Source: a virus (lineage: Duplodnaviria; Caudoviricetes). From it: a stretch of DNA of 64,000 nucleotides. The position numbers and the translations under genes are program-made. How positions within the stretch are numbered: the first letter of the stretch is position 1; the number at the start of each line of letters is the position of its first letter. The stretch is taken from positions 23,621 to 87,620 of the IMG/VR virus record IMGVR_UViG_3300031786_000572. The stretch is one strand, 5' to 3'. The notes beneath the pieces are model-generated. The model saw nothing but the letters and a program-made list of their open reading frames with translations, was not told the DNA's origin and searched no databases. This document shows positions 6,266 through 34,400 of the stretch, in pieces.

Positions 6266-7471
6266 ATGGAACTAAAAAAACAAGACGAAATTTTCGATGA
6301 CAACTATTGGGCACTCCTTGCAACAAATGGCAAGTTAGTACCAAATGCGAAATTAAGTAGTAAAGCAGGCAATGCTGTTTATTGCCACGAATCATACGCT
6401 GAAGATTTATTGGCGGTGTATCAAGGAATGACTGAAACGGCAAATAAAGAGCCGAAAGTAGGTGAAGTTTATAAACTTGTAGATGTAAGAGTCGGTGTTA
6501 ACCGTGAACTATACGTTACACTTACAGGTTTTATTGATGCAACAGTTAATCTGGAGCAAGAGAAGAAATTCCTAGCAATGTTAGGAATGACTGAAGAAGA
6601 ATTGGTAGAGAGTTTAAAAACCGAAGACGGTAAAAAACATTTCTGTGCTAATCAGTATCATGTAAGAGTTGAGATGATTAAACCTTATGTTAAGGTATCT
6701 CTTTATGAAGGGCAGCTTTCTCATATCAAAGAAGATTTCTTTGGGCAGATTGGAAAACCTACAACAGCTTACTATGGAACTATTACAGGTAAGAACCAAG
6801 GTGGATTTATTATTGCGGTTCAAGGTATTAATGGTTTCCTTCCTGGATCTCTTGCGGCAGCTAATGTGGTACGAGACTTTGATAGTATGATTGGTAAAAC
6901 AGTTCCAGTGATGGTTGAAGATTATCTTACAGAGAGTAGTACATTCGTATTCTCTTATAAGAAATATCTTGCTTATGTTCTTCCAACAAAAATTGAAGAA
7001 CTTGACCTTGATGCAAAATACACAGGGACAGTTACAGGTATTGCAAAATATGGTATCTTTGTTGAGTTTGATGAAATCTTTACAGGATTACTTCATAGCA
7101 GTAAAATGTCTGCGGCTCTTAAAGAATCGTTTAAGAACTTTGAGTTTAAACCTGGAGATACGGTTGACTTCTGGATTAGAGAGATTACGCCAGATAAGAA
7201 AATCATTTTATCTGATGAAGATCCTTCATTCCGTAGAAAAGAACTTGAAGAATTTAAAGATCAAAACGTTGGAATTATTCGCAGCGGGGAAGTGGTGTCA
7301 ATTCAACCATTTGGTGCACTAATTAAAATCCAAAAAGATATGGTTGGTCTTATTTCCCAAAAGGAAATTAAAATGAAAAAGAAACGATTCAATGTAGGTG
7401 ATGAAGTTATGGTCACTATTGAAAGAGTTGCTAACGATAAAATTTTCTTAACATTACCAAGCGAATCGTAA
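6266..7471 (+). CDS. rpsA: Ribosomal protein bS1 homologue (about four S1 domains)
   Basis: Repeated S1/OB motifs: 'YGTITGKNQGGFIIAVQGINGFLPGSL...VRDFDSMIGKTVPVMV' (bS1 D2-like), 'YTGTVTGIAKYGIFVEFDEIFTGLLHSSKM' (D3-like) and 'SGEVVSIQPFGALIKI...GLISQKEI...FNVGDEVMVTI' (D4-like). The start was moved from 6167 to the ATG at 6266, which has an A-rich context and lies after the upstream stop. Confidence 0.85.
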   Translation: MELKKQDEIFDDNYWALLATNGKLVPNAKLSSKAGNAVYCHESYAEDLLAVYQGMTETANKEPKVGEVYKLVDVRVGVNRELYVTLTGFIDATVNLEQEKKFLAMLGMTEEELVESLKTEDGKKHFCANQYHVRVEMIKPYVKVSLYEGQLSHIKEDFFGQIGKPTTAYYGTITGKNQGGFIIAVQGINGFLPGSLAAANVVRDFDSMIGKTVPVMVEDYLTESSTFVFSYKKYLAYVLPTKIEELDLDAKYTGTVTGIAKYGIFVEFDEIFTGLLHSSKMSAALKESFKNFEFKPGDTVDFWIREITPDKKIILSDEDPSFRRKELEEFKDQNVGIIRSGEVVSIQPFGALIKIQKDMVGLISQKEIKMKKKRFNVGDEVMVTIERVANDKIFLTLPSES

Positions 7472-12393: not shown

Positions 12394-12663
12394 ATGGCAG
12401 AACCAAGAGAAGGTAAGTATTTAACTCGAGAGAGCTATTACCAATATATGATACATATTCAAGATGATTTAAAAAATACTGGGTATGACTGGAGAAATAA
12501 CTTGTTTAGAAAGTCTTTTTCTACTTATTTATTATCAGATCCTAAAAGAGAAGGAATCTTAATCGAACTTCAAAAAATGATGGTTTATATGATTGACCGA
12601 GTAAGCATGATTAAAAAAGCTATGAATTACACGGTTGATAAAAACTACAAATATCTTAACTAA
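12394..12663 (+). CDS. Hypothetical protein (baseplate operon)
   Basis: 89-aa ORF tightly packed between gp6-like and the giant wedge-like gene (TAATG overlap). Confidence 0.6.
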   Translation: MAEPREGKYLTRESYYQYMIHIQDDLKNTGYDWRNNLFRKSFSTYLLSDPKREGILIELQKMMVYMIDRVSMIKKAMNYTVDKNYKYLN

Positions 12664-15600
12664 TGTTATTAAACAGACAATTTAAAGTTTTTAACAAAAG
12701 CGGAAATAACATTAACTCTACGGAGATTTTACCTATTACCGCAACTGTTATAGATCCTACTGGTGCAGGCCAAGGTGGTGAAATCCGTGTGTACACTGAT
12801 TACGCTGGAACTATGCAGTATGTACAGATTGTCAATCCAGGTATAAATTATAGTTCAGATACTTATGTAAATTTTGAAACTCGCCCTATCATTAATAAAC
12901 GATGGGACAGTGATTCAGCTTGTTTAGGATTAAGTGTGCTGGGAGAAATTACTTCTTTTAATTTTGCCGGAGATCCAACTTCAGTGTATAATACATTAGG
13001 CTGGCCGATTGTTGCTAATACAATTAGCAATTCATGTTATCTCCCACCTGTTTCTGCAGGATTAATTGAATCTGAAAATATTTTCATAATTGAAAAAATC
13101 TTGGATTCAAATGGAAACACTTCATATGTTTTACCAAGAATTGATCTTTACACACAACCTGTGCAAAGTGTTGTGACTAATGGATCTTCTGCTACATTAG
13201 AAGTTGAAAACTATCAATCTACAGGTATAGTAAACGCTGTAAACTCTTTTGTTATTACAGGAATTAGTCCTGCGGTAATTAGTCAGTTATCTACTAATAT
13301 GACCGTGTTAGGTAATGGAATATTATCTAACACACTTATATTAGAAATTAATGTAATACTTGGAGAAATTACTTTAAGTAGACCTTCTACAAGTATAGGC
13401 ATAACAAATACATATGATTTTTATATTCCACATAACTTAAAAGTAGGTTCTCCTATTAATGTGTATGGTGGTCCATTGGCTGGATCTTATACAGTTACAC
13501 AAGTTCTTCCGTATAAATTTTCATTTGACACACTTATATCAACAACAGTTGTGCCAATTTCATATGCAGCTATTCCACAGTTTGAGGCAAGAATAAGAAC
13601 AGGAACAGATCCTGAATGGTTTTTATATGAAGTAGAATACGGGGTAGATTATCCAACGATTAAGAAATCGCAAACTATTATATTTACGTTAGATTCATCT
13701 GACCCATATTCATTACCCGATGCTATTATTCAACAGTCTAATAATCTAGGACCTAACGGTGAAATTATTCGCCAGGTGTTTGAACCTAATTTACTTAAAG
13801 CGCCTTTACAAATTAATTTTGGTTTACAAGCTGATGTTGAGGGTGTTTATGCAGGACAACTTGAAATTGTTGATGTAACGTATGTAAATAAAGAAACTAT
13901 TCTATTTTCATTAAACATTGAAGGTGAAATAGTTGCTGAGGATGAACGTCTAGGTTCTATGCTTGAAAACTTAGGACGTGATATTACAACAGACCAAGAA
14001 CTTATACTTAGAGATTCTGATGTTAATGAAGATAATCCTGACTACATTTTACTTAACGAAAAACGAAAAGAGATGCTTCTCCAAGGAGACCAGATCTGGC
14101 CGTATGTTGGTGCATATAAAGGTTTAGTCAATATTATAAATTGGTTTGGTTATTATGATATAAGAATTAAAGAATACTGGCTAAACGTAAATGTTGATGA
14201 TGCTTATTATAATAAGTACAGACAAGTTCCTATTGCGTTTCAACTTAAAGATAAAACTGCAAGTGGAGAACAAATTGGTTTACTACCAAGTAAACACTAT
14301 AAGAAATCAAATCTATTTGGACTTTTTTATGATATCGTAAGAGACTCTGCTCAAGTTGATGAGTACGGTATTCCTGTAACAGAAGATGCTTTTGCATATA
14401 CTAATGAAGAAGTCTTAATCAAGTTATTTGCACTTAAAGGATATCTTAAACAAAAATTCCTTCCACTAAATACAAGAATTGTTGATATTACTGGTGAAGG
14501 TGTTTATTATGAAAGATATGCAGTTAATACTTGGAATGATAGAACTGATAGACATTTAATTAATGCAGGTAAACGATTAAACTTTACAAATACACAAAGA
14601 TCTCAAATTGTAGATCTTAGACCTTATAATGCAAACGGCGGACTGTTAACTCCTGAAGTTACAGATTCATTATCTATTTATGCTGATTCATACGACATTA
14701 GTGATGTTATCATTACTTACGGTGGAAGTGGATTTTTTGGGGAAATTCCTTTAATAACTTTCCCAGGTTCTGCTTTACAACAAGCAAGAGGTGAATGTAA
14801 AGTTCGTGCTGAGGCTGCACCCTTTCCTATTCCTATAACCGGTGCAATCCCAGGTATAAATTTTCAAGTTGGTGATATCATAACTCTTAAAGGAGGTACT
14901 TATGATGTACCTATAAGACTTGAAGTTGCTGGTGTTAATTTAGGAGGTGGTGTTACTGACTATGTTATAAATGCTGGTCCTCAACAAGGAAGCAACTACC
15001 GTTCATTGCCTACAACGTTTGCACAGTCAACTGTTTTACGCCCGGTTGGAAATCAATATGAAATTCCATTAGGAGCTATTGGATTTACTATAGATGCATC
15101 ACAAATTTCATTTGAAGTTGAAGAAGTTACTTTATATGATAAAGGATTGAGTTACGGCGTTTATCCTACTATTCAGTTTTTATGGAACTCTCCTTTAGGC
15201 GTTTCTCCAACAGGAACCTTAGTATTAACGAAAAAGACTTCTTCACCTGTAAGCTATTTTAGTGATAGTGAAAGTGTTAAGAAATACAGTGATTCTGCCA
15301 ACATTCCAATTGGTGCAATCGTTGACTTAAATACCTCTTTTGATGTAACTTGGGACGAATTGCCGTTTCCTTGGTTAACTTTCACTGGAAGTAATAATGC
15401 AACATTAAAAGCATACGGAACTTTATTACCGAGTGGTGGTGGAAATATTACTGCGGTAGAAATTATTAATCCTGGAAGTGGTTATAATTATGCGCCAGTG
15501 ATTAAAGTTGCTGGTGGTGGAGGCTATGGAGCAACGTTTTCATCACAAATAAGAGATGGCAAACTAAACATTGTAGAATATACTGTATCTAATGTTGGTA

Positions 15601-18600
15601 CATGGGGCGGTGGTAATGATCTACTTACGTTATCTCCAAGTATTCCTGTCGGTGGATTATCTGCTATCAGTATTGGTAGAATTGTTAAAGGTTTAGGATT
15701 ACCTGAAGGTACTGTAATTGGAAACATTATAGGTAATGACATCTATTTAGAAAAATATGATGCAAGCGTAATCTTTTCAACAATACAAGTTGGTGCAAAA
15801 ATATATGTTCATCAAGGCGTTGGAGTAACTTTTGGCGGATTTGGATATACGTCTGAACCTTTAGTTTACACAAGCGGTGGTCATACAACTGTTATGTATA
15901 CTTGGGATGAATTAGGTAGAGCTGACTTTTATCAAATGGAATGGAAAGCTACATTAACAAGTCCTACTGACCCTACACGAGTTTTTCAATATAGATCTGG
16001 AGTAAATACCATTGACGAATTAATTCGTCATACTGTGATTTTACCTTACACTGGAAAATACACAATAGAACTTGATGTATATGACACAACAAATAGTAAG
16101 TCAAATAACATAAAACGTGATGCTGTTGAAGTATATGTTCCAGAAGCTGATTTTGCTTTCATCAGTAAAAACGTTGATGATTCCAAAGATACTTGGGATG
16201 AATTTGCACAAATACAAGCACAAGGTCTTAATCCTTCATTAGCACAAATACAAGCTAACGTACCTATTGATGCGCCTAATCCAATTAGATATGATTGGGA
16301 CAATGCAAATAGCAGTTGGGTTAACATAACGTTTAATCCTACACGTTGGATGGATTGCGATGTTAACTGGGATACCCTAGTTGTGACTGATTTATCGGAT
16401 GTTAATAATCCATCGTTCCCGCCATGTAATGAAATCGAGGTCCTTCAAATATCCTCTCGAGATCTTGCAGAAGGTGTTGTGTTAAGCTATTCTGATAATG
16501 CATCTGCATTTCCTTCAGTTAATCCTACGATTGTAGTTGCAGGTCAAATAATTAGACAACCGTTAGATCCTTCATATGATCCAACTGATTGGATTTATAT
16601 TCGCAGAGACGGAGTCATATATCAGTTAGAAGTTATATCCGCAGATTATTCTGTTCCAGGACAAACTTCTATTGAACTTGCTGTTAAACCTCCTCAAGCA
16701 TTTATTGCAAGTCCTAGTACATGGGAAGTTCTTAGAGAAATAGAAGGAACAGTTGCGGTAAAAGGAAATCAAATTTATGATGAAACTACTAATCCAAATG
16801 GATTTAAAACTGGTGAATATCTTGTACTAACAAAAGAGGGGTCAACTCCTATTTCTAGTAGAAATGTTATTCGTAGTAAAGATCCTGATGATATTTTTGA
16901 AATTGCCGGTGCTGCAGGTAGTACTATTCTTAATAAGAAAGGCGCTTATGGTAGAATTTATAAAGTAAGAGATAATAATTACTTAAACGGAAATCTTAAT
17001 TGGTCAAATAATGTAACTGCGGTAGATCCACTTGGATTTACATTTACAGGATTTGGTGCGCCAGGACCTGCATCTTTTATTAATGTGCCTCAAACTTCTG
17101 CATCAGGTGGAGGTGTAAACTCTATGTGGAACATTGACATAGATGTATTAGGCAATTATACAATTACATTAGCAAATGGCGGCAGCGGGTTTTCTATTGC
17201 TGAAACCGTATTTATTGATGCAACAGCTATCGGTGGAGTTCCAGGGTTTAATGATATTACAATAACTGTAAATAACACAGTTTCTGAGTCTGCTTGGATG
17301 TACATAAATACAACTCCTAATGATCCAGAAAAAAGTGATCATATTGGTCAATTAGTTTTTAACACTAAGCAGTTAACTTGTAATCCTATAGATGAAATTC
17401 GTCCCGGGTTTACAAGAATGCGTTTATACGTATATGACGGTGTACAAGAAATTTATACACAAGTGTTTAGAACTAAACATGCTTACTTAAATACAAGTAG
17501 TACTACATCTATATTCCAAATGTGGAATGCTGAATATTATACGATTGATGTGATAGGTTTAAATGGAGGTGAATTAAATGAACTGAATACTCAGCTTAAT
17601 ACATTCTATAATAATGGAAATTCTATTTATTTAGAATATGAATATGATGACTTTACAACTCGTCAACGCTGGGCGCAAGATTTTAATACAGATTTAACTA
17701 TTATACCTGACTATAATTCATTTCCTCCTGCTGGTGCATTTTCTAATGCAACTAACTTTGGTCCTGCTTATGAAGTTGATAATCGTAATTGGTTTTATGA
17801 TCATGGGATAGTTGGAAATAGTTATTCTATGAAAATACTTAACACAGGTACTTGGAAAGGTGGAGTAGGCACTTTATTAACTCTTGATGATAATAATCTT
17901 GAGCTGTATAGAAGTGATACATATTTCCATGCTTGCCAACAAAGGTTTGATGAAGATTACGCCGAAAGACATTTAGGTACTCGAGTTCAAACATGGGAAA
18001 ACTATGAAGAGCTTACTTGGGATACTTTTAGTGGAAATACGTTTGACACGCTTGATTATGTAGATAATTTATGGTGCGGATATGTTATTGATACAGTTGA
18101 CACAAATGGAGGTATAAAGTTTAATGAATTACCTACATTTAATTTTGTAGGTATAGTTGGAGGAATGAGTGATTCAGAAAAATTTGCACAAGCACTTTGG
18201 GAACTTAATAATTCTGATAATCCTGGAATTAGTAAATTTAACTATGGGTTATATAGTGCAACAAATAATTCTTTATTGTACATTGATGCAAACTATGTTA
18301 ATGATAACTATTTTACTGCGCTAACCGGCGGATTTCAATATATAGGAAAAACTAAGATAAACACATATCTTGTGCCTGATGGTGTTTTTTATGAAAACAG
18401 TGTAACAATTACAAATGGAGATGTTTTATATTCTCCTCTTGTTGAACCTGCATCAAAAGTTACTTCAATAGCACCAGCATTTTCAATAGATCCGCTATTA
18501 ACAAACTATAATGTTACTTATCTAAATAAGAATATTCCTAAGAAAGGTTCTTTTGTTGCAAATGGTGTTTCTGGGAGCTACCGTTTAAAAAATATACAAG

Positions 18601-19523
18601 GATTACATGAAGGTGTAATCAGAGTAGGTGAAGTAGTGTCTGGTGTTAACTTACCTGTTGCTCCAGCAATACCTGCTACAGTTTTAGAAATCTTTGCAAT
18701 TAACGGAATGGTTCGTGAAATTGTTCTTAGTCAACCATTAAGTGGAAATGTAACAAATGGAAGTTATGTAATTGAGCAAATAACACTTCCTAATGCAACA
18801 ATTACAATACCGTTTTTATCTAACGGATTAACACAAAATGATATTCAGATATTTGCGTTTGCAACAAATCCAAGTGTAGATAACTTAGGTTATTTAGTAG
18901 GAACTAATGGAGTTACATTCTTACCTCCACAAAATCCTAGCGCCACTATTAACACATCAATAGCACATACATATCCAATGAATAATTTTTATCAATGGTT
19001 TGGGTTTGGTGATAATAAAGTAGGATCATTTGAATATGGATTACAACAGTTCTTAACCAAGTATCGTTATGCTCAAACTTATATAAATTTAGGTACAGCT
19101 CCTTGGGGTGTTCCAGGTTGGTACCCTGCGGATAATTTACCTTACAAGTATTCTTATACTAATGATCCAATATTTAGCAATTATCTAGAAGCAAAATCAC
19201 AATCTGAAAGATTGCCGTATGCAAGAGCTATTGGTGGATCGTATACGTGGGATGAAACAAGAATTGGTAAATATGTAACCAAAATTCCGTCTGGTAGTTC
19301 TGTAATGTTATCAGCAGAAGCAAGTGATATGGTTGGTAAGACAGGATATCTTTGGAAATTAAAAGACGGAAATATTACCCTTGCTGAAACTATTGATAGC
19401 CGTATGTTATGGACATTTGATTACACAGGCGCTTTTGATGTTGAACTAACTATCACAGATACAAATGGTAATCAAAAAACACAATCTAAAAAGTCATTCT
19501 TAAACGTATATGAAGCAAGATAA
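12663..19523 (+). CDS. Giant baseplate wedge-like structural protein (gp7-like position) with GSGY-type repeats and PKD-like domains
   Basis: 2286-aa ORF after gp6. 'VEIINPGSGYNYAPVIKVAGGGGYGATF' repeats are typical of T4-like baseplate proteins. PKD-like 'YTGKYTIELDVYD' and C-terminal 'FDYTGAFDVELTITDTNGN' are present. Confidence 0.6.
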   Translation: MLLNRQFKVFNKSGNNINSTEILPITATVIDPTGAGQGGEIRVYTDYAGTMQYVQIVNPGINYSSDTYVNFETRPIINKRWDSDSACLGLSVLGEITSFNFAGDPTSVYNTLGWPIVANTISNSCYLPPVSAGLIESENIFIIEKILDSNGNTSYVLPRIDLYTQPVQSVVTNGSSATLEVENYQSTGIVNAVNSFVITGISPAVISQLSTNMTVLGNGILSNTLILEINVILGEITLSRPSTSIGITNTYDFYIPHNLKVGSPINVYGGPLAGSYTVTQVLPYKFSFDTLISTTVVPISYAAIPQFEARIRTGTDPEWFLYEVEYGVDYPTIKKSQTIIFTLDSSDPYSLPDAIIQQSNNLGPNGEIIRQVFEPNLLKAPLQINFGLQADVEGVYAGQLEIVDVTYVNKETILFSLNIEGEIVAEDERLGSMLENLGRDITTDQELILRDSDVNEDNPDYILLNEKRKEMLLQGDQIWPYVGAYKGLVNIINWFGYYDIRIKEYWLNVNVDDAYYNKYRQVPIAFQLKDKTASGEQIGLLPSKHYKKSNLFGLFYDIVRDSAQVDEYGIPVTEDAFAYTNEEVLIKLFALKGYLKQKFLPLNTRIVDITGEGVYYERYAVNTWNDRTDRHLINAGKRLNFTNTQRSQIVDLRPYNANGGLLTPEVTDSLSIYADSYDISDVIITYGGSGFFGEIPLITFPGSALQQARGECKVRAEAAPFPIPITGAIPGINFQVGDIITLKGGTYDVPIRLEVAGVNLGGGVTDYVINAGPQQGSNYRSLPTTFAQSTVLRPVGNQYEIPLGAIGFTIDASQISFEVEEVTLYDKGLSYGVYPTIQFLWNSPLGVSPTGTLVLTKKTSSPVSYFSDSESVKKYSDSANIPIGAIVDLNTSFDVTWDELPFPWLTFTGSNNATLKAYGTLLPSGGGNITAVEIINPGSGYNYAPVIKVAGGGGYGATFSSQIRDGKLNIVEYTVSNVGTWGGGNDLLTLSPSIPVGGLSAISIGRIVKGLGLPEGTVIGNIIGNDIYLEKYDASVIFSTIQVGAKIYVHQGVGVTFGGFGYTSEPLVYTSGGHTTVMYTWDELGRADFYQMEWKATLTSPTDPTRVFQYRSGVNTIDELIRHTVILPYTGKYTIELDVYDTTNSKSNNIKRDAVEVYVPEADFAFISKNVDDSKDTWDEFAQIQAQGLNPSLAQIQANVPIDAPNPIRYDWDNANSSWVNITFNPTRWMDCDVNWDTLVVTDLSDVNNPSFPPCNEIEVLQISSRDLAEGVVLSYSDNASAFPSVNPTIVVAGQIIRQPLDPSYDPTDWIYIRRDGVIYQLEVISADYSVPGQTSIELAVKPPQAFIASPSTWEVLREIEGTVAVKGNQIYDETTNPNGFKTGEYLVLTKEGSTPISSRNVIRSKDPDDIFEIAGAAGSTILNKKGAYGRIYKVRDNNYLNGNLNWSNNVTAVDPLGFTFTGFGAPGPASFINVPQTSASGGGVNSMWNIDIDVLGNYTITLANGGSGFSIAETVFIDATAIGGVPGFNDITITVNNTVSESAWMYINTTPNDPEKSDHIGQLVFNTKQLTCNPIDEIRPGFTRMRLYVYDGVQEIYTQVFRTKHAYLNTSSTTSIFQMWNAEYYTIDVIGLNGGELNELNTQLNTFYNNGNSIYLEYEYDDFTTRQRWAQDFNTDLTIIPDYNSFPPAGAFSNATNFGPAYEVDNRNWFYDHGIVGNSYSMKILNTGTWKGGVGTLLTLDDNNLELYRSDTYFHACQQRFDEDYAERHLGTRVQTWENYEELTWDTFSGNTFDTLDYVDNLWCGYVIDTVDTNGGIKFNELPTFNFVGIVGGMSDSEKFAQALWELNNSDNPGISKFNYGLYSATNNSLLYIDANYVNDNYFTALTGGFQYIGKTKINTYLVPDGVFYENSVTITNGDVLYSPLVEPASKVTSIAPAFSIDPLLTNYNVTYLNKNIPKKGSFVANGVSGSYRLKNIQGLHEGVIRVGEVVSGVNLPVAPAIPATVLEIFAINGMVREIVLSQPLSGNVTNGSYVIEQITLPNATITIPFLSNGLTQNDIQIFAFATNPSVDNLGYLVGTNGVTFLPPQNPSATINTSIAHTYPMNNFYQWFGFGDNKVGSFEYGLQQFLTKYRYAQTYINLGTAPWGVPGWYPADNLPYKYSYTNDPIFSNYLEAKSQSERLPYARAIGGSYTWDETRIGKYVTKIPSGSSVMLSAEASDMVGKTGYLWKLKDGNITLAETIDSRMLWTFDYTGAFDVELTITDTNGNQKTQSKKSFLNVYEAR

Positions 19524-21699: not shown

Positions 21700-22428
21700 A
21701 TGGCTGTAAGAAGAAAAACTAAACCGGTGGTAGAAGACCTTGTACAAGAACTAAAACCACAAGAAAGATTACTTATGAAAATAAGAGTTGATCTTAAATG
21801 TAAAAATGATCGCCAGAAAAATTTCATTAGACTAATAAATAAGCATGACATTGTAGTCTGTGCAGGTCCAGCTGGAACTGGAAAAACATTCGTTGCTTGC
21901 GCTGAAGCTCTAAAATTGCTAACTACACAAAATCACAAGTATAAGAAAATCATAATCGTAAAATCTGTAACTGTTTTAGAAGGCGAAGAAATTGGTTTCC
22001 TAAAAGGGACAATGAAAGAAAAGATGGAGCCGTTTATGATATCTTTCTTAGATAACTTTCATAAACTTATAGGTAAAGAACTAACAGGAACAATGTTAAA
22101 TTGTGAAATGATTGAAGTACTTCCACTTGCTTATGTTAGAGGAAGAAGCATTGATAACGCAATCATTATTGTTGATGAGGCACAAAACATTACATTGAAA
22201 AACATGCGTTCAACAATGACTCGTTTAGGTGAAGATTCCAAAATCATTATTACTGGTGATACCAAACAGATTGATATGAAAGCTGGAAATACCTCATCAT
22301 TAGAAAAAGTAGTTCAATACTTTACACCGATGGAAGAAGTTGGTATAATGGAATTTGGTAGAGAAGATATAGTTCGTAATCCGTTAATCATCAAGATTGA
22401 AGAAATCTTTGAGAAACATATGGGTTAA
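21700..22428 (+). CDS. phoH: PhoH-family ATPase
   Basis: Walker A 'GPAGTGKT', 'LAYVRGRSIDNAIIIVDEAQN', 'TRLGEDSKIIITGDTKQID' and 'DIVRNPLI'. Confidence 0.95.
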   Translation: MAVRRKTKPVVEDLVQELKPQERLLMKIRVDLKCKNDRQKNFIRLINKHDIVVCAGPAGTGKTFVACAEALKLLTTQNHKYKKIIIVKSVTVLEGEEIGFLKGTMKEKMEPFMISFLDNFHKLIGKELTGTMLNCEMIEVLPLAYVRGRSIDNAIIIVDEAQNITLKNMRSTMTRLGEDSKIIITGDTKQIDMKAGNTSSLEKVVQYFTPMEEVGIMEFGREDIVRNPLIIKIEEIFEKHMG

Positions 22429-22868
22429 AAATCAATTATGTTAATTCTATCCTTTTTATTTGCAACCCAATAAGGACCGTAATTAACAGTAAGTTGTTCT
22501 CCCACGTTTATATCACGTAAAGTCTTAACACCTATTAAGCGGTTTTCAAAATCGCGAAAGAACTCAGAATTATTATTACCGCTGTGATTATAGATACTTA
22601 AATATCCTAACATCACAGCGGTTTTTGGTTCATCAGATTCATCAGGCCAACTCATACCGTATTGGTCAAGAACAATATCATCAATACTTATACCATCTCC
22701 TTGCGCCATATACATAGCTATGGTTATAAGTTTTTGTGGATATGTAAAGATTGGAGATAACTCAATAATAGTATCAGCTGGAATAGTTTCATAAGTAAAA
22801 ACTCCCCAGCCGTTTATTTGTGGTATGTCTTTAAGTTCAAGACAGTTAAGAATAAAAGGTTTATTCAC
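22425..22868 (-). CDS. SET-domain protein-lysine methyltransferase
   Basis: Motif I 'GWGVFTYETIPADTIIE', 'LSIYNHS' (NHS motif) and 'TLRDINVGEQLTVNYG' (ELxxxY motif). There is no post-SET Cys cluster. Confidence 0.88.
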   Translation of the reverse strand: MNKPFILNCLELKDIPQINGWGVFTYETIPADTIIELSPIFTYPQKLITIAMYMAQGDGISIDDIVLDQYGMSWPDESDEPKTAVMLGYLSIYNHSGNNNSEFFRDFENRLIGVKTLRDINVGEQLTVNYGPYWVANKKDRINIIDF

Positions 22869-23280: not shown

Positions 23281-23985
23281 ATGTTTACTCAACAACAACT
23301 TAACAAACTACTTTTCTTTGACATCGAGACTGCAGGACAATATCCATCATATGAAGAGTTTAAAGCTCAAGATCCTGAAGGAGCCAAAATATATGCAGGA
23401 AAATGTGAAAGAATGGGATACGGTGATCCTGCTGATGGGTATGAAAATAAAGTTTCTTTATTCCCTGAATTTGGTCGTATTGTTTGTTTATCATACGGTC
23501 TTTGGAAAAATGGAGATATCCAAGTACAAACTATTTCAGATTTAAACGAGGCTGATCTTATAAAGAAAACAGCTCACCTATTTAATAAAGCAACAGCAAG
23601 CGGTTTAATCCCTTGCGGCTGGAATATTAAGAATTTTGACATTCCTTGGGTTTATCGTAAAATACTTATGTACGGATTCCTAGTTCCTGAATGTGTAAAT
23701 ACTTGGGGCAAAAAACCTTGGGAAGTAAACATTGTTGATTTAAAAGAATGGTGGAAAGGATTCTCTAATCTTGATGTTACTTTTGAAGAAGCAATGTACG
23801 GATTAGGATTACCTTCTCCTAAAGATGAAATGAATGGCGGCCAAGTTCATTTTGAATATTGGGCAAATCATAACACAAACGGTATCATTAAATACTGTGA
23901 GAAAGATGTTATCGGAATGATTCGCATGATTGAAAAAATACATAACACTTATTATAAACCAGCCGTAGGCACAACACTTATTTAA
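23281..23985 (+). CDS. 3'-5' exonuclease, PolB-exonuclease-related (DEDD) family
   Basis: 'LFFDIETA', 'PEFGRIVCLSYG', 'GWNIKNFDIPW', 'GKKPWEV' and 'YCEKDV'. Confidence 0.85.
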   Translation: MFTQQQLNKLLFFDIETAGQYPSYEEFKAQDPEGAKIYAGKCERMGYGDPADGYENKVSLFPEFGRIVCLSYGLWKNGDIQVQTISDLNEADLIKKTAHLFNKATASGLIPCGWNIKNFDIPWVYRKILMYGFLVPECVNTWGKKPWEVNIVDLKEWWKGFSNLDVTFEEAMYGLGLPSPKDEMNGGQVHFEYWANHNTNGIIKYCEKDVIGMIRMIEKIHNTYYKPAVGTTLI

Positions 23986-23986
23986 T

Positions 23987-24829
23987 ATGCCAGAATTAGC
24001 GGAAGTTAAAATCATGGGTGATTTCATTAATCACGTTGTTGATAATGAAGGATTCTTTGAAAAGATTGAGAAATCAGAGTCTACTAAAGTAAAAACAGAT
24101 CTTGATATCTTTGACGGCGGAGTATTTACATTACGAGCAAAAACTCGTGGCAAAGAAATGATACTTCATCTTGAAATGGTGGGTGGCGATATTAATGGAG
24201 CCGTCACTAAAGATATGGGAGTTACTTTAGGTATGAGTGGCAACTGGGCATACATAAGAAAAGAAAGTGAGCATTTAGAAAAAGTGCTTAAGCATTCTCA
24301 TTTAAGATTTATCACAACAAGAGGAAACTATTTAGTATTACATGATGTTAGACGTTTTGCTAAATGGAAATGGGTAAATGATTGGAACGCTGGTCGTGGT
24401 CCTTGTCCGCTGACAGAATATCCTAAGTTTATTGAAAATGTAAAACTATATTTTAGTAAACACAAAGCATTTAACTTACCTATTAATGAATTGCTGATGA
24501 ACCAACGATTCTTTAATGGAATAGGAAATTACCTAAGAGCTGAAATACTCTATAGACTAAACATTAATCCTTTTACTATCGCAAATGAGATTAGTCTTAA
24601 AGATTGGGACCATCTGCTTCTTCTTTGTCATTTATGCGTTAGAGACGCATATACTTTGGGCGGCGGGCAATTAAGTGATTGGAAAAATCCTAATGGAGTT
24701 GATGCTAAAGACTTTAAAGAATGGAAGAAATGCTATGGAGTTTTATCGTCTTTAACCGATGGTACAGGCAGAAGATTTTGGTATGATCCAAAATGGGAAG
24801 AATATGTACCTAGTAAGTACACTCAATAA
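23987..24829 (+). CDS. nei: Fpg/Nei-family DNA glycosylase/AP lyase, NEIL1-like (zincless finger)
   Basis: N-terminal catalytic 'MPE', 'RGKE', 'LGMSG', 'DVRRF', H2TH 'NQRFFNGIGNYLRAEILYRL' and C-terminal 'CYG..SSLTDGTGRRFWY' without a 4-Cys zinc finger. Confidence 0.92.
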   Translation: MPELAEVKIMGDFINHVVDNEGFFEKIEKSESTKVKTDLDIFDGGVFTLRAKTRGKEMILHLEMVGGDINGAVTKDMGVTLGMSGNWAYIRKESEHLEKVLKHSHLRFITTRGNYLVLHDVRRFAKWKWVNDWNAGRGPCPLTEYPKFIENVKLYFSKHKAFNLPINELLMNQRFFNGIGNYLRAEILYRLNINPFTIANEISLKDWDHLLLLCHLCVRDAYTLGGGQLSDWKNPNGVDAKDFKEWKKCYGVLSSLTDGTGRRFWYDPKWEEYVPSKYTQ

Positions 24830-27918: not shown

Positions 27919-30900
27919 ATGGCAGAGACATCAAATAGTTTTGCAACCATACTTGCGGATTTTATCCGTCTTCAAAATAATTCACTTGAGCAATTACAAA
28001 AAGTTTCTCAAGCGGTTACTACGAATGCAGATACAGTTACAGTTACACAAACAAACTCAGACGGAACTACAAGTACATTTACTTTACCATCTTTTGGATT
28101 CTTAAAATCAAGTATTGAAAGAATAGACAAGACGGTAAGTACTATGCTTGGCTTTGATGGTTCAGAGGCTTACATTCGTATGCCTGATGGAACTTTTAAA
28201 AAAATCTATCAGTCAAAGAATGTTACTGACCCATCACCAGTAGGACAAGTTACTGTTCCAGCTAAATTTATTGCTGAGAACAATTACTTCTTTGAGTCTT
28301 TATTATCACCTGCTTTAAAAGTTAGCATTGATGTTTCCAAATATGTTCCACAAGAAGAAAGTAAGATTTACGTAAAACGTATGATTCTTAGTCTTGACAC
28401 TGACGATAAGATTCAATACTTTAATAATAGTCTCAAAGGTAAGAATGATATTAATTATGTTAACTTACTTGTAGAATTGCAAAAACGTAACATTACATAT
28501 TTTGTTGATGAAGGTGTAAATGATCTTCCTCTTTCTATTGTAAGATACACTGGAGATTTCATAACAGTTAATATTGAAGATAGAACATACAGTAATCCTG
28601 ATGGAAGTACTTCAACTAAACGTTGGTACCTTCTTAATACTTTAAAATATAATGATAATCTTTCATTAACTAAAGATACTATGGTTCTTAAGCCTGGTGA
28701 CAAGTTATTAAAAGGTGAATCTATTTATGAAGTATCAGAAATTGATAACTCAACAAATTTCATTAGAATTAACCGCACTAGTGGTTATGATCCTTTAGTA
28801 GTAGGTGAACCTGTAATATTCTATTCTGAAACATTCTCACCTAAAGTTGCTAACGTTGGAATTGGATATGATGAATATGAAGTTGTGTTCTTTAAGAGTG
28901 TAAATGATACTGAAAACCTGTTATCATCTACATATTCACCGGGTGTTGCTTTTTACACAAATGAATTAACAATAGATTTAACTACAGGACCTAAGTTACT
29001 TAGTGATTTTTATAATGAATCTGTTCTTGACTTTGGAAGTATGCTTCTTGCAGGTTCTAAAGAAAACAAAATTGCTGCAGTAAATGGTCTTGTACCTAAT
29101 GCACCCGTTCTTAACGAAGTTAACTTTAAAGTAGTTTCGGTTAATGATCATAAACTTGACCAAGCTGAAATACAAGCTATTCGTAAAAAGCAAGCAGATA
29201 AAGTTCGTCTTGAATCAGAGATAACCGAATTACAGAAATCTATTGACAAAAAGAAAGAAGAATTAAACACAACTAAATTTAACTCAGATACTGAAAGAAG
29301 AGCTGTGAAAAACCAGCTTGACTCTCTTATTCGAGAAAAAGATACAAAAACAGCTCTTTATGCTTCAATCGTTAAAGAACTTGCTGTTACTGCACAACAA
29401 AAACCCGCTGCGCTTGATACACCTAAATATCGTATCCGTGGATTCTATGCTATCCCAGAACCTGTAAAGGATTCTAACGGTCAAGAACAAAATGTAATAC
29501 AGTTCTATACATACTATAGATATGTTCGTCCAGATGGCTCTGCAAGTGACATAAAGCAATTTGATTATACAGATACAAGCGGTGCAATTAAAAGAGCTAC
29601 TTATAGTAATCTTAATGAAGTAAAATCAGAGATTCGCAAAAAAGTATATGATCCTGTAAGAGGGATATATGTTTGGCTTGAAGAAGACATTACTAATCCT
29701 GATGTAGTAAATATTAACCAAGTTGATATTCCAATATCTAATGGTGAAAAAGTTGAGTTTTATGTGGTATCAGTTTCTGAAGCTGGTTGGCCAGAAAACC
29801 CAATTCTTTCAGTACCGTCTAATATCATTTCTATTACTTTTCCACAAGATCTTGTTTCTGAAGACGAAGCTACTATTGCACTTCGTGAAGCATCACAAGA
29901 TATTGTAAGAGTAGATCTTGAAAATGATTTAGCTGCTAAAGGACTTGATGTTCACCTTGCTTCTTCATTTAATGCAATAGAAAAATACTATGCGCATGAT
30001 ACTTCAGTAATCTCTTCAAATGTTTATACAGCTCAAGGAACTGTAATATCATTAGAAGATTACATTACTAGTCTTAACTTGAGAATACAAGATCTTGAGA
30101 ATAGACTGAATAAAGTTGTGGGAGATGTTAAAGTTTACATTGTAGATGAAGAGAAAAATGCAAAACTCCCTGTTAAGAACGGCGATGTAGTAACTCTATT
30201 TGCTGGCTACTATACAGATGCAGTTAATTTACTTCCTGCAACAAGTCGTCGTGGTGCAATTATTAATAAGTCTTATAAAATTTATCTTGAAAATGAAGAA
30301 GCTTCACCGCTTCAACTTATTTCAAGATTACCTGGCGGTATTGCTGAAGAACTACCAGATAGTTTTTCTTCCTCGGTTCCTCCTGGAATTAATGACCCAG
30401 ACTATAATCTTTATAGAAAATATGATATCACTCCTATTGTTAACCCATCGGTTAATCCAGCTGATACAAATAATGCTAATAAGATTGCTACAGCTTTCTA
30501 CCAAAGCGGGCAACTTAAAGGCCAATTCTTATACAGTAGATATACTGATGTAGGATTAGTTAATCCTCTTTACCAAGCGCCAGGTACAGGAACTAACAGA
30601 TACATTGTTCCATCTACTGATTATTCATCAAATGTTACACAACCTTGGATTTGGAACAGATTATCAGTAGGTCCTGGCACTGGACCTATTGGAGGTGGAA
30701 CCGCAAACAATTTTACTATTCATATTGACCACCCTGCAATTAATCCTCCAGCTGCAGGAACTACTGCTACACTTGCAAATTTACAAACTCCGGTAATTGC
30801 TATTGATCCTATTTCAGGTAATCCGCAATCACCAGAAAGAGTTAGTACTTTTAGACATGCATACGGGTTTAATCAACTTGGTGATAAAAATACGCCAGCA

Positions 30901-31482
30901 AAACAATTAGAATATAAGAAAAACTGGCCTTCTTCTACTGGACCAACTGGGCCTTACACAGGTTTAACTGCAACAACACCAACATTAGGTATTTTACCTG
31001 ATAAGTATGGTTTTGTGAATGATGATAGATATTTAATAGGCGCTGATACTTGTGGTGCTTACTTGTTCTTAGGACCTGTAACATACAATCAATTATTAGT
31101 TAACGGTGTAAATGCTTTAGCAAGTCGTTCATTAGAAAATGGTTCAAATAATGCAATAGTTATTCCAGTGATCTTTCAGTATAGAATGACTGATTATTAC
31201 GGACCTTCTATTACATCTTCTTCATCAGCAGGTGGTAATGGAATCATTGGCGGATATAATGTAACAAACACAGTTCCTCCTAAGAATATAACTTATGTTA
31301 GACAAATAGGATTAGACTTATATCAACAAGATAAACAAACATTCTCTTTCGATATTCAAGTTGCAGCTACATATCAGAAAGATTCATTAATCCAACTTTA
31401 TGAAACAGGATTACCAACAGCAACCAAACAAGTTAAAGAGGTAACCTATGATAAAGCAACCATTAAACGTATATTCTCGTAA
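27919..31482 (+). CDS. Large putative virion structural protein
   Basis: 1187-aa ORF with a central coiled coil ('KVRLESEITELQKSIDKKKEEL') and Pro/Gly/Thr-rich inserts. Confidence 0.55.
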   Translation: MAETSNSFATILADFIRLQNNSLEQLQKVSQAVTTNADTVTVTQTNSDGTTSTFTLPSFGFLKSSIERIDKTVSTMLGFDGSEAYIRMPDGTFKKIYQSKNVTDPSPVGQVTVPAKFIAENNYFFESLLSPALKVSIDVSKYVPQEESKIYVKRMILSLDTDDKIQYFNNSLKGKNDINYVNLLVELQKRNITYFVDEGVNDLPLSIVRYTGDFITVNIEDRTYSNPDGSTSTKRWYLLNTLKYNDNLSLTKDTMVLKPGDKLLKGESIYEVSEIDNSTNFIRINRTSGYDPLVVGEPVIFYSETFSPKVANVGIGYDEYEVVFFKSVNDTENLLSSTYSPGVAFYTNELTIDLTTGPKLLSDFYNESVLDFGSMLLAGSKENKIAAVNGLVPNAPVLNEVNFKVVSVNDHKLDQAEIQAIRKKQADKVRLESEITELQKSIDKKKEELNTTKFNSDTERRAVKNQLDSLIREKDTKTALYASIVKELAVTAQQKPAALDTPKYRIRGFYAIPEPVKDSNGQEQNVIQFYTYYRYVRPDGSASDIKQFDYTDTSGAIKRATYSNLNEVKSEIRKKVYDPVRGIYVWLEEDITNPDVVNINQVDIPISNGEKVEFYVVSVSEAGWPENPILSVPSNIISITFPQDLVSEDEATIALREASQDIVRVDLENDLAAKGLDVHLASSFNAIEKYYAHDTSVISSNVYTAQGTVISLEDYITSLNLRIQDLENRLNKVVGDVKVYIVDEEKNAKLPVKNGDVVTLFAGYYTDAVNLLPATSRRGAIINKSYKIYLENEEASPLQLISRLPGGIAEELPDSFSSSVPPGINDPDYNLYRKYDITPIVNPSVNPADTNNANKIATAFYQSGQLKGQFLYSRYTDVGLVNPLYQAPGTGTNRYIVPSTDYSSNVTQPWIWNRLSVGPGTGPIGGGTANNFTIHIDHPAINPPAAGTTATLANLQTPVIAIDPISGNPQSPERVSTFRHAYGFNQLGDKNTPAKQLEYKKNWPSSTGPTGPYTGLTATTPTLGILPDKYGFVNDDRYLIGADTCGAYLFLGPVTYNQLLVNGVNALASRSLENGSNNAIVIPVIFQYRMTDYYGPSITSSSSAGGNGIIGGYNVTNTVPPKNITYVRQIGLDLYQQDKQTFSFDIQVAATYQKDSLIQLYETGLPTATKQVKEVTYDKATIKRIFS

Positions 31483-34400
31483 TGACAGGACCAAATTTTT
31501 ATACGATTGATTTTTCTAGAGAAGTAGTTCTACAAGGAAAGTCAACAACATTCATAACGATAGGCAGAAATGAAGGTATTAACTTACTGCCAACTGAGGA
31601 TTTGTATGTAATCGTTATGCCTAATACGAGAACGTTTAATTCTTATTTAAGTGGTACACAAACACCAGGCGGTACTGGGTTAACTGCTATTCAAGAAGTT
31701 GAAGTTACTACAACAACTACTAATGTAAGCCCAGGAGTTTTAAGTTTTAACAACATAGAACCCGGTATGACTGTTAAGAATGCTTGGGATTTTCAAAACT
31801 CTGGAGCAACAGGACCAATTTCGGTAACAGTAGGTTCTACAGTAGATAGTCAGATAAATGAAAAAATCATTAGTTTGACAGGATCTCCTGGTTTTGTAAC
31901 AAATGATGGACCTACCAATATTCATATAGGTGAATGGGATGATAGCGGTAAAAACCGATGGAAAATAAATGGTAAAGTTTTAAGTGATTACGAATACATT
32001 GCATATACATCTCCACCATCTAATCAAGATGTAATTAACTTGCCAAATATATTTGATGGTTCAAAAGAAACTTTTGTTGGACCTTCTAGTACTTTAGTTG
32101 GTACTGGTTACGTTGGTCGTCAAAACGGTGGTTGGGTAGTAGTTAAAAGTAATCCCAAATTACCGAATGCTTCTGTTACATTGAGAATTGATTACGATGG
32201 GACAGATCATTCACATATGAAGTTTAATCTTATAATCTTTAAAAAATTAATAAATAGCGGTTTACTTACATATCAAGCGCCGCTAAATTTACCAACAAGT
32301 GTATCACCTAATTCTGAAGATTATGTTACAGTTCCATTTGGTGTTAAGTCAGGATCTTCTACATTAGGATTAACAAATTATCTTGACTATCAAGAAGTTC
32401 ATTTCTTTGGTTATAAAGATACTGATACCAGAACTTCAAGAACAACCTATCAGAATGATTATCAATCAGAAACTAAAATCTATGATGATCGTACTTCATA
32501 TTCATTATTAAAGACAAATCCTAAAATTTCGGGTAACGTTAAAATTACTTTAGATTCTACAGGAAACTTGTGGTTAAACTCTATTGATGCAAATAACGAA
32601 TTAGCAGATTCTGCATATAAGAAATACCCTGTTAGCCCATTATCTACATACCCAAGAGACCTTTACAAGTTCTTTAAGAATGGACAGACGCCAACCTCAA
32701 TTATTTTTGATCTTTATCAAGTTGACAATCTTTATCAAAATACCAAAAGAAATTTATACGAACAGTTTGATAACTTTTATAACTACGGAGTTGAGCAATT
32801 AAAAAGTAAATATTATGATGAAAACTTTTCATTCTTTGCACCACTTTGGTTAAGAAAGAATGTTCCAGATTTCTTTATAGTATTTCGTTTAGATCACCCG
32901 GTTTCTGAAGAGACATATAAAAATGCAAGTAATCCTGAAGTATTTAAAAGTTTCTTTAAAGACGCAAGAATAGTTAAAACATTTGACATGCGTGAGAAAT
33001 CACAGCTTGGTACTTACTTGCGTAAAATTACCACGGATCCTCGTTTTAAAGAACGTCCACTTGACGTTAGTTTTGATAGTGACATTCCTACTGTTTGGAA
33101 TGGTATTTCTTATGCAGATGGCACAATGACAGGTAAAGGTGAGTTCTTATTTGATTACTGGAAGCAAGATCGTCCTGTAATTGAATTAGAAGAATACATC
33201 ACAGGTGGTTACCAAAGAAACGGAATTATTAGTTCAAATCTTGTTAACTTAGAGTTCTTATTTGATGATGAAGAAGCTACTCCATATTCTATTAATCGTT
33301 ACTTTGGTTTATATGTAACTGAAAACCAATTAGCAAACTTTCAAATTGATTCTACTGCATTAGGAAAAATCTCAGGTCAAACACCTCTTCCTAAAGTTGG
33401 AGTTGACGGTGAACCGTATAGTACAAAAGAATTCATTCAGAATAATCCAAATGGGATAGAAATTCCTGTAAGATATTTTCATAATCCTAGCGGTGTTGTA
33501 AATAACACTAATATACCTTCATACCAAGGTGATGTGATTGGAAAGTTTCCACTGCCAAGTTTTGTGGAAGATCCTCTAAGAATCTTTTATGTTAAAGACA
33601 GAGAAGATGCGTTTAAACGTATCACAGCATTATCTGAAGTAGATTATGGAAACCCTGGCACCGACGATTACCGCAGAGTAACTCAAATTAAACTATTTGA
33701 TAATACTGAAGACATGAGCAAATATGCAGGTGTTAATCAAATATCATCACAGTTTAATGCAAGTCTTTTAAATGAAGGCGCTTCACAGTTAAGATTACAT
33801 TTAGCGCAACATGATTCCGCAAATGTTTTTGCCGATGATGAAGTTATAGAACTTACAGTTAACCAATATAATGCAGATCCTCGTAATCGTCAGTATTGGA
33901 TAAGAACAAAAAATACTACTGCCACTGATATAACATTTGAAGTATTTTTAGATCAACAAGCATACCCATTAACTAACCAAGCATACACAATGCCAGCGGT
34001 AGGAGCTACTACTGTAATTTCAGTTAATGACAACTTTCATACTTTTGTGGTTGGCGAACAAGTTTGGGTTTCTGGTCTTGGTTATTTTCAAATTAAGTCT
34101 ATAGCAGCTACAACTAATTTAACTGTTATGAATACTGGAGAAGCTGGCAATGCAGCGCCAGGGACAATCATACCAATGTTTTATAATGCTGTTATAAGTA
34201 GAATTTCTCCTACATACATATCAACATATAATTATACCCCGTTTTCAGACATTTTAACAATAGATACTGTCTTATCATTAAAATTACAGAGTACTAATTT
34301 ATTCGTGCATCAATTAGGGTTTTGGAGAGTTGAAATTAAAGATACGCAAGTATCTTCAACATATATTGCAGGCTCAGGACAACCGGACCTTGAACCTTTA

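What the first reader, a model, noticed from the sequence alone, without database searches (positions are those of the whole stretch)
23987..24829. DNA glycosylase that resembles animal NEIL1 rather than bacterial Fpg/Nei
Seen in sequence, compared with my recollection of human NEIL1: the block 'QRFFNGIGNYLRAEILYRL' (24503-24559) is identical. Further colinear matches are RGKE, GMSG, HxHLRF, DxRRF, GRGPC, KAF, 'LxLCH', and 'CYG..SSLxD..GRxxW'. The zinc finger of Fpg/Nei is replaced by a zincless finger, as in NEIL1. Inference: a phage lineage holds a prokaryote-side relative of NEIL1, which bears on NEIL1's origin or on horizontal transfer. It may repair oxidised bases in ssDNA or bubble DNA during phage replication, or process modified DNA.
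Basis: partly seen in the sequence, partly recalled or inferred. Interest (0 to 1): 0.75.

Follow-up and report, generated by a model that had tools for sequence, protein, structure and literature searches.

The report
NEIL1-type repair glycosylase in jumbo phage
An uncultured giant bacteriophage carries an intact DNA-repair enzyme that is far closer to animal NEIL1 than to ordinary bacterial Fpg/Nei, and it belongs to a large, mostly phage-borne family that is the nearest known kin of eukaryotic NEIL1, though which side gave the gene to the other cannot be told.

Summary
Window 23987-24829 (+) encodes a 280-aa Fpg/Nei-superfamily glycosylase. Human NEIL1 matches it at E 8e-40, against 6e-9 for the best bacterial Fpg. 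The 19-residue block is identical to human NEIL1. The AlphaFold model (pLDDT 96) finds human NEIL1 first (TM 0.8-0.87, 36% identity). The catalytic and DNA-contact residues are kept (P2, E3, K56, M83, R122, F124, R262), and the finger has no zinc-binding cysteines.

The gene is native to the phage. Gene order PhoH-SET-small ORF-exonuclease-NEIL is kept in 17 independent contigs, the gene's GC equals the window's, and dN/dS is about 0.1. The contig is a T4-like-capsid jumbo phage, probably of Bacteroidota.

The family is large: 399 IMG/VR contigs carry it, but only 7 of 185,579 species genomes do. Those in Poribacteria and Neomarinimicrobiota MAGs lie in cellular contexts.

In ML trees the short forms and eukaryotic NEIL1 form a clade (100/100) that excludes Nei and Fpg. 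The eukaryotic clade is monophyletic (100/99). The branching inside is a polytomy, and an AU test (p 0.30) does not reject short forms as sister to NEIL1, so the direction of transfer is unresolved.

The likely function is excision of oxidised bases from replicating phage DNA.

This scan made the same finding earlier on other phage genomes.

The parts
23987..24829 (+). NEIL1-type Fpg/Nei-superfamily DNA glycosylase/AP lyase gene, 280 aa
   Evidence: ORF. Pfam Fapy_DNA_glyco 2e-12 and H2TH 1.8e-9, both above cut-off. Human NEIL1 at E 8e-40. AF2 model pLDDT 96.3. Foldseek top hits are human NEIL1, TM 0.8-0.87.
23987..24367 (+). N-terminal beta-sandwich catalytic domain (aa 1-127) with P2 nucleophile, E3, K56 and the void-filling residues M83, R122, F124
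   Evidence: Pfam PF01149 covers residues 1-127. Conservation among 125 short forms: P2 100%, E3 99%, K56 100%, M83 97%, R122 96%, F124 98%.
24440..24649 (+). Helix-two-turn-helix DNA-binding domain (aa 152-221). It includes the block 24503-24559, which is identical to human NEIL1 over 19 residues.
   Evidence: Pfam PF06831 covers residues 152-221; alignment.
24710..24787 (+). Zincless finger (aa 242-267): a beta-hairpin with R262 and W265 and no Cys4
   Evidence: Pfam PF09292 Neil1-DNA_bind at residues 242-267, 21.5 bits, just below the 25-bit cut-off. AF2 strands at 254-257 and 263-266. R262 98% and W265 98% conserved.
23281..23985 (+). PolB-exo-like 3'-5' exonuclease (234 aa). It lies directly upstream with a 1-nt spacer and is probably co-transcribed. 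It is a possible repair partner (inferred).
   Evidence: Pfam PF10108 4.5e-10; PHROG 25228, 3'-5' exonuclease, 7.8e-32. It abuts the glycosylase gene in 15 of 17 lineage loci. It is also adjacent, in the opposite order, in locus L002 of another clade, which carries UvdE upstream as well.

Best explanation
The gene encodes an active, minimal NEIL1-type bifunctional DNA glycosylase/AP lyase: the catalytic core without the eukaryotic C-terminal tail. By analogy with NEIL1 and Nei chemistry, the mechanism would run as follows. After removal of Met1, the amine of Pro2 attacks C1' of a flipped-out damaged nucleotide, helped by Glu3 and Lys56. M83, R122 and F124 fill the gap left in the duplex. The H2TH motif and the Arg262 hairpin of the zincless finger hold the backbone. 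The Schiff-base intermediate resolves by beta,delta-elimination, leaving a one-nucleotide gap. The most likely substrates are oxidised pyrimidines, formamidopyrimidines and hydantoins in the phage's own DNA during replication. The enzyme is a vertically inherited core gene of a Bacteroidota-type jumbo phage lineage with a T4-like capsid. It is probably co-expressed with the abutting 3'-5' exonuclease. Shown here: family, fold, conserved residues, synteny, purifying selection and the phylogenetic position. Inferred: the chemistry, the substrates, the role of the exonuclease and the timing.
For: Sequence: NEIL1 at E 8e-40 against Fpg at 6e-9. Fold: pLDDT 96.3, and the top hits listed are all human NEIL1. 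The catalytic and DNA-binding residues are invariant or nearly so across 125 short forms and 35 eukaryotic NEIL1. dN/dS is 0.10-0.13 against relatives, and the gene's GC of 0.35 equals the window's 0.344. Synteny holds across 17 contigs. In other phage lineages the gene lies among helicase, topoisomerase II, DNA polymerase, RNR and dCMP deaminase genes. In L002 it lies between UvdE and the same kind of exonuclease. These contexts point to replication or repair. In the tree the NEIL1-like group has 100/100 support against Nei and Fpg.
Against: No biochemistry has been done. The lesion-recognition loop differs from human NEIL1: Gly227 stands where K/R242 is, there is a 3-residue insertion, and Trp232 stands where Tyr244 is, so substrate preference may differ. 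No polynucleotide kinase 3'-phosphatase (PF08645) was found in five related records, and an ATP ligase was found in only one, so completion of repair would need other or host factors. DEDD exonucleases usually do not remove 3'-phosphates (my own knowledge), so the proposed partnership is weak. The exonuclease linkage is seen in only two lineages.
Confidence: 0.7

Rival explanations
1. Counter-defence or host-takeover enzyme. The glycosylase/AP lyase does not repair spontaneous oxidation. Instead it processes lesions or AP sites made in phage DNA by host defence enzymes (deaminases, glycosylases, base-modifying toxins), or it attacks host DNA.
For: Jumbo phages carry many conflict genes. The gene sits next to a SET-domain protein and PhoH, whose roles are unknown. 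The lesion-recognition loop differs from NEIL1.
Against: Nothing in the neighbourhood matches a known defence or anti-defence family. In other lineages the gene sits in replication and nucleotide-metabolism modules, and once beside UvdE, a repair enzyme. The complete NEIL1 active site is kept.
Confidence: 0.12
2. Enzyme for handling modified bases. The glycosylase removes mis-incorporated or unfinished non-canonical bases linked to a DNA-modification pathway of the phage.
For: The contig encodes glycosyltransferases and a nucleotide-sugar epimerase. Relatives have dCMP deaminase close to the gene.
Against: No DNA-modification enzyme was shown. The glycosyltransferases may equally act on surface sugars. 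The gene occurs in several phage lineages with different neighbours and in bacterial chromosomes.
Confidence: 0.08
3. An ordinary bacterial Nei or Fpg picked up from the host, which only looks like NEIL1 through convergence in the H2TH motif.
For: The Pfam domains are the general Fpg/Nei ones, and NCBIfam's weak best hit is Fpg.
Against: It scores far below both equivalog cut-offs. NEIL1 is 30 orders of magnitude better than any Fpg or Nei and matches over the full length. The clade has 100/100 support against E. coli Nei, Salmonella Fpg and nine other Nei/Fpg. Median bit score to eukaryotic NEIL1 is 121 for short forms and 41 for Nei/Fpg.
Confidence: 0.03
4. Artefact: eukaryotic contamination or a chimeric assembly placed a NEIL1 gene in a phage contig.
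For: None beyond the surprising similarity.
Against: The same gene order appears in 17 independent IMG/VR contigs, and NEIL divergence tracks that of its neighbours. GC matches the window and dN/dS is about 0.1. There is no C-terminal tail. The gene lies outside the eukaryotic clade, which has 100/99 support.
Confidence: 0.01

Closest known systems
Human/metazoan NEIL1 (endonuclease VIII-like 1; PDB 1TDH, 5ITX, 6LW*)
   Same: About 36-40% identity over the whole catalytic core, with a 19-residue identical H2TH block. The same fold (TM 0.8-0.87). P2, E3 and K (K54 in human, K56 here) are kept, as is the M/R/F void-filling triad. The finger is zincless, with the conserved Arg and Trp.
   Different: It lacks the roughly 100-aa disordered C-terminal interaction tail. 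It lacks the roughly 14-residue insert after the H2TH (the HMMER alignment breaks there). The lesion loop has Gly at the K/R242 position, a 3-residue insertion, and Trp for Tyr244. It lies outside the monophyletic eukaryotic clade. It is encoded by a phage.
Mimivirus Nei1 (L315; the formamidopyrimidine-DNA glycosylase chains 3A42/3A45/3VK7/4NRW, identified as mimivirus from memory), described as a viral NEIL1 ortholog (Imamura et al. 2009, cited in PMC3188539)
   Same: A virus-encoded Fpg/Nei enzyme with a zincless finger.
   Different: It is only distantly similar to this protein (E about 1e-8, aligned only over residues 108-210). It comes from a virus of eukaryotes. Giant-virus Fpg models in BFVD match at 17-19% identity.
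E. coli endonuclease VIII (Nei) and Fpg/MutM
   Same: The same superfamily, two-domain architecture, N-terminal Pro/Glu chemistry and H2TH motif.
   Different: They have a Cys4 zinc finger. Identity is 22-30%. The protein is below the NCBIfam equivalog cut-offs. They form a separate clade with 100/100 support.
Fpg-like genes of cultured phages (Bacillus phage G gp292, SP-10, YungSlug)
   Same: Phage-encoded members of the Fpg/Nei superfamily.
   Different: They show 21-29% identity and group with Salmonella Fpg in the outgroup. No cultured phage in INPHARED has a NEIL1-type copy.

Membership tests
Fpg/Nei (H2TH) DNA glycosylase superfamily | N-terminal catalytic domain with Pro2 nucleophile and Glu3 | tested here: met
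   The protein starts MPELAEV. PF01149 scores 48.2 bits against a 25.5 cut-off. P2 and E3 are invariant in the family.
Fpg/Nei (H2TH) DNA glycosylase superfamily | Helix-two-turn-helix domain | tested here: met
   PF06831 scores 37.9 bits against a 34.7 cut-off. The AF2 model shows helices at 145-191.
Fpg/Nei (H2TH) DNA glycosylase superfamily | C-terminal beta-hairpin finger with a conserved Arg that contacts DNA | tested here: met
   Strands at 254-257 and 263-266. R262 is 98% conserved.
Fpg/Nei (H2TH) DNA glycosylase superfamily | Glycosylase plus beta,delta-lyase activity | not testable with these tools
   This needs an enzyme assay.
NEIL1 subfamily | Zincless finger in place of the Cys4 zinc finger | tested here: met
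   There is one Cys in the last 60 residues. PF09292 matches residues 242-267 at 21.5 bits, just under the 25-bit cut-off. Many close relatives carry a precomputed PF09292 hit.
NEIL1 subfamily | Closer to NEIL1 than to any other Fpg/Nei branch | tested here: met
   PDB phmmer gives NEIL1 8e-40, Fpg 6e-9, the chains taken to be mimivirus Nei1 about 1e-8, plant Fpg 1e-4 and NEIL2 4e-3. Foldseek ranks NEIL1 first. The clade with eukaryotic NEIL1 has 100/100 support against Nei and Fpg. NEIL2/3, MvNei1 and plant Fpg were not in the tree.
NEIL1 subfamily | Void-filling triad (human M81, R118, F120) | tested here: met
   M83, R122 and F124 align with it and are 96-98% conserved.
NEIL1 subfamily | Lesion-recognition loop residues (human K/R242, Y244) | tested here: inconclusive
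   Gly227 stands at the 242 position. There is a 3-residue insertion. Trp232 aligns with Tyr244 in MAFFT, but Leu229 aligns there in HMMER.
Eukaryotic NEIL1 orthologues in the strict sense | Placement inside the eukaryotic NEIL1 clade | tested here: not met
   The eukaryotic clade (Metazoa, choanoflagellates, Amoebozoa, Ploeotia) is monophyletic at 100/99 and excludes all short forms.
Eukaryotic NEIL1 orthologues in the strict sense | Disordered C-terminal protein-interaction tail | tested here: not met
   The protein is 280 aa and ends 13 residues after the finger.
Bacterial Fpg (TIGR00577) and Nei (NF007763) equivalogs | Score above the curated equivalog cut-off | tested here: not met
   83.4 bits against 203.3 for Fpg, and 42.1 bits against 252 for Nei.

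The most novel reading that the evidence does not exclude
Eukaryotic NEIL1, including the human enzyme, descends from this phage and bacterial pool of short NEIL1-type glycosylases. On this reading it was acquired once, before the split of animals, choanoflagellates and Amoebozoa, and not inherited from the mitochondrial ancestor's Fpg or Nei. The phage-borne forms are then the surviving donor lineage. The reverse, an ancient capture of a stem-eukaryote gene by phages, is the alternative.
Probability: 0.5. Interest if true: 0.8.

Novelty: new member of a known kind. Interest (0 to 1): 0.6.

Why it matters
The Fpg/Nei literature I could read treats NEIL1 as a metazoan subfamily ('MeNeil1', PMC3188539). 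A review proposes a mitochondrial origin for H2TH glycosylases (PMC8307549). Neither mentions relatives in phages or bacteria. This gene shows a large and diverse sister or parent family: about 100 clusters at 50% identity, 399 viral contigs and a few bacterial phyla. The members are 36-48% identical to animal NEIL1. That makes the origin of NEIL1 a testable phylogenetic question. It also supplies compact, tail-less natural NEIL1 cores for structural and substrate studies. Finally, it shows that many large T4-like-capsid phages carry their own repair of oxidised bases.

Tried and rejected
Only IMG/VR and GTDB loci were examined.
- IQ-TREE with the mixture model on all 174 rows did not finish in about 500 s. 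I used FastTree on the 174 rows and quick and careful IQ-TREE runs on a 68-row subset.
- The first AU test compared against a poorly searched quick tree and is superseded.
- FastTree and all 200 bootstrap trees of the careful run place the eukaryotes inside the short forms. I do not accept this as shown, because AU gives p 0.30 and the backbone is a polytomy.
- I looked for downstream BER partners in five related records. PNK3P was absent, and ATP ligase was present in one record only.
- A promoter and terminator scan around the gene showed nothing above shuffled expectation.
- Five literature searches and three papers searched for terms turned up no description of phage NEIL1-type enzymes. 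The library does not hold all journals, so absence is not proof.
- Megablast of 20 kb of the window against cultured phages found no match.

Full report
**The observation**

The window holds an ORF at 23987..24829 on the + strand. It encodes 280 aa and starts MPELAEV. Pfam finds the Fpg/Nei N-terminal domain (PF01149, 2e-12) and the H2TH domain (PF06831, 1.8e-9), both above their cut-offs. It also finds the NEIL1 zincless-finger domain (PF09292) at residues 242-267, at 21.5 bits, just under the 25-bit cut-off.

I ran phmmer against all PDB sequences.
- The 15 best hits are all human NEIL1, at E 8e-40 to 2e-38.
- The next best is Thermus Fpg (1EE8) at 6e-9.
- The formamidopyrimidine-DNA glycosylase chains 4NRW/3A42/3A45/3VK7, which I take from memory to be mimivirus Nei1, score about 1e-8.
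- E. coli Nei scores 4e-3, and NEIL2 (6VJI) scores 4e-3.

The printed alignment shows the 19-residue block QRFFNGIGNYLRAEILYRL (nt 24503-24559) identical to human NEIL1. The C-terminus has one Cys and no Cys4 finger.

**Structure and residues**

I made an AlphaFold2 model from a 48-sequence alignment (A1). Its mean pLDDT is 96.3 and its pTM is 0.92. Against the PDB, Foldseek's top hits are all human NEIL1, at E about 1e-25, TM 0.8-0.87 and 36% identity. In the viral structure library the best matches are much weaker: Bacillus phage G gp292 at 23% identity and giant-virus Fpgs at 17-19%.

Across 125 short forms and 35 eukaryotic NEIL1, the residues corresponding to NEIL1's catalytic and DNA-contact residues are nearly invariant:

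| Residue | Conservation in short forms |
|---|---|
| P2 | 100% |
| E3 | 99% |
| K56 | 100% |
| M83 | 97% |
| R122 | 96% |
| F124 | 98% |
| N177 | 94% |
| R262 | 98% |
| W265 | 98% |

The lesion-recognition loop differs from human NEIL1. Gly227 stands where K/R242 is, the short forms have a 3-residue insertion, and Trp232 aligns with Tyr244 in MAFFT. The protein also lacks the eukaryotic C-terminal tail.

**The genome**

The window is bases 23621-87620 of an 87.6-kb IMG/VR record that CheckV estimates to be 28% complete. That implies a genome of roughly 300 kb.
- The contig encodes a baseplate wedge protein and PhoH.
- It encodes a gp32-like SSB, a primase and an exonuclease.
- It encodes a UvsW-like helicase.
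- It encodes glycosyltransferases.
- A 238-kb relative of the same lineage and four records from other NEIL-carrying lineages all encode a T4 Gp23-type major capsid protein above Pfam's cut-off.
- By a conserved 1187-aa protein, the nearest cultured relatives are Tenacibaculum, Flavobacterium and Chryseobacterium jumbo phages, Sphingomonas phage PAU and Prevotella megaphages.

This is therefore a jumbo tailed phage, probably of a Bacteroidota host. None of those cultured phages has the gene. The best tblastn hits in 50,697 phage records are Fpg-like genes at 21-29% identity.

**The gene is native to the phage**

In 17 independent IMG/VR contigs (L082-L097 and L124) the gene order is the same: PhoH, SET-domain protein, small ORF, exonuclease, NEIL, then structural genes. 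NEIL identity of 53-85% tracks that of its neighbours. The gene's GC is 0.35 and the window's is 0.344. dN/dS against relatives is 0.10-0.13, though dS is close to saturation. Contamination, chimeric assembly and recent capture are excluded.

**The family**

The word-indexed search found 1956 proteins at E<=1e-10. Many sit on contigs of 100-318 kb, and JGI names a number of them automatically as 'endonuclease VIII-like 1'. The exhaustive search of 50%-identity representatives found 390 at E<=1e-10 and 110 at E<=1e-30. Those listed fall into two groups:
- about 100 short forms of 250-300 aa;
- longer forms that are eukaryotic NEIL1. Named examples are tuatara, oyster, crab, tardigrade, the choanoflagellates Salpingoeca, Mylnosiga and Codosiga, the amoebozoans Planoprotostelium and Endostelium, and the euglenid Ploeotia.

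A pattern scan of IMG/VR found 399 viral contigs that encode a relative. The same scan over one genome for each of 185,579 prokaryote species found only seven NEIL1-type loci. All other hits there were ordinary Nei or Fpg at 22-30% identity.

I checked the contexts of the seven.
- **Poribacteria.** The loci lie among sulfatases, an RlmL-type methyltransferase, an L,D-transpeptidase, a SAM hydroxide adenosyltransferase and an oxidoreductase.
- **Neomarinimicrobiota.** The locus lies beside UbiE and an outer-membrane protein.
- These are cellular contexts.
- **The two Bacteroidota MAG contigs.** They look phage-like, and their NEIL groups with a viral contig at 100/98.

The family is therefore mostly phage-borne, with a few bacterial lineages.

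**Phylogeny**

The outgroup was E. coli Nei, Salmonella Fpg, two cultured-phage Fpgs and five to ten further bacterial Nei-like sequences taken from genome loci. All three trees separate a NEIL1-like group (short forms plus eukaryotic NEIL1) from Nei and Fpg, with support of 99 to 100/100. All three also recover a monophyletic eukaryotic clade, with support of 99 to 100/99.

| Tree | Rows | Method |
|---|---|---|
| 1 | 174 | FastTree |
| 2 | 68 | IQ-TREE, LG+C20+F+G4 PMSF, quick search |
| 3 | 68 | same model, careful search |

Inside the NEIL1-like group the backbone is a polytomy. In all 200 bootstrap trees the eukaryotic clade sits among the short forms. However, the best tree with the short forms held together is only 8.7 log-likelihood units worse, and the AU test gives p 0.30. 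The direction of transfer between the phage/bacterial pool and eukaryotes cannot be decided from these data.

By raw similarity, the phage-borne clades are the closest to eukaryotic NEIL1, with median scores of 150-167 bits. The Poribacteria and Neomarinimicrobiota copies score 105-120 bits, and Nei and Fpg about 40. NEIL2/3, mimivirus Nei1 and plant Fpg could not be put in the tree, because I had no references for them. Their PDB E-values show they are far more distant than NEIL1.

**Function**

The full NEIL1 active site, strong purifying selection and the gene contexts all point to a working repair enzyme. The most likely role is excision of oxidised bases from phage DNA during replication. 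The contexts are:
- helicase, topoisomerase II, DNA polymerase, RNR and dCMP deaminase beside the gene in other phage lineages;
- UvdE and an exonuclease beside it in L002.

In this lineage the gene abuts a DEDD-type PolB-exo-like 3'-5' exonuclease. The stop codon and the next ATG are one base apart, and the two genes abut in 15 of 17 loci. The same pairing recurs in one other clade. A functional partnership is possible but not shown. No PNK 3'-phosphatase was found in five related records, and an ATP ligase was found in one only. How the gap would be completed is therefore unknown.

Counter-defence and modified-base handling remain minor rivals.

**What is known**

NCBIfam has no model for this family; the Fpg and Nei equivalogs are missed by a wide margin. 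PHROG 21295, which the protein matches at 9e-23, is labelled 'unknown function'. The literature searches found no description of phage NEIL1-type enzymes. The Fpg/Nei phylogeny paper I read lists a metazoan Neil1 subfamily and the mimivirus enzymes (PMC3188539). A review suggests a mitochondrial origin for H2TH glycosylases (PMC8307549).

Earlier agents of this scan reached the same reading on other phage genomes (e1-5322261 and e1-5367281). I re-derived it independently here.

**Verdict**

This is a new, phage-borne member of the NEIL1 kind. It belongs to a large family I found no description of, and which bears directly on the origin of eukaryotic NEIL1. Its mechanism is expected to be ordinary NEIL1 chemistry.

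Noticed in passing
window 22425-22868 (-): A 147-aa SET-domain protein (Pfam SET 6.6e-13). It is conserved in position in all 17 contigs of the lineage. The 238-kb relative G005 has two SET genes, and another NEIL-carrying lineage (G002) has one. SET domains are mainly eukaryotic lysine methyltransferases; the target in a phage is unknown.
   Followed up: partly
window 6167-7471 (+): A 434-aa protein with two S1 RNA-binding domains (Pfam S1 4.2e-27), lying among virion and baseplate genes.
   Followed up: no
window 12663-19523, 31482-39080, 39184-45759 (+): Three giant ORFs of 2286, 2532 and 2191 aa. They were not scanned against any family library. The neighbouring 1187-aa protein (27919-31482) matches PHROG 29329, of unknown function, which is shared with Tenacibaculum, Flavobacterium and Prevotella jumbo phages.
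   Followed up: no
G000:C1:568-7362 (upstream of the window; L166): A cluster of two glycosyltransferases, a nucleotide-sugar epimerase and a HAD-hydrolase fusion protein in the phage contig. It could act on surface sugars or on DNA; this is not resolved.
   Followed up: no
G001 (record of L103), C1:92089-92442 and 93262-93633 (-): An ATP-dependent DNA ligase match is split into two pieces about 800 bp apart, and one piece has an in-frame TAG. It may be an interrupted or recoded gene in a 318-kb phage.
   Followed up: no
L002:7074-9492 (+): A contig of a Saprospirales MAG that looks like phage DNA carries UvdE, the NEIL1-type glycosylase and a PolB-exo-like exonuclease in a row. This is a compact repair island.
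   Followed up: partly
L003, L004, L007, L008 (Poribacteria MAGs): Poribacteria MAGs carry NEIL1-type genes of two kinds in ordinary chromosomal contexts with sulfatases, RlmL and YkuD (L003/L004 and L007/L008; one MAG has both). From my own knowledge Poribacteria are sponge symbionts. These copies are less NEIL1-like (105-120 bits) than the phage copies.
   Followed up: partly
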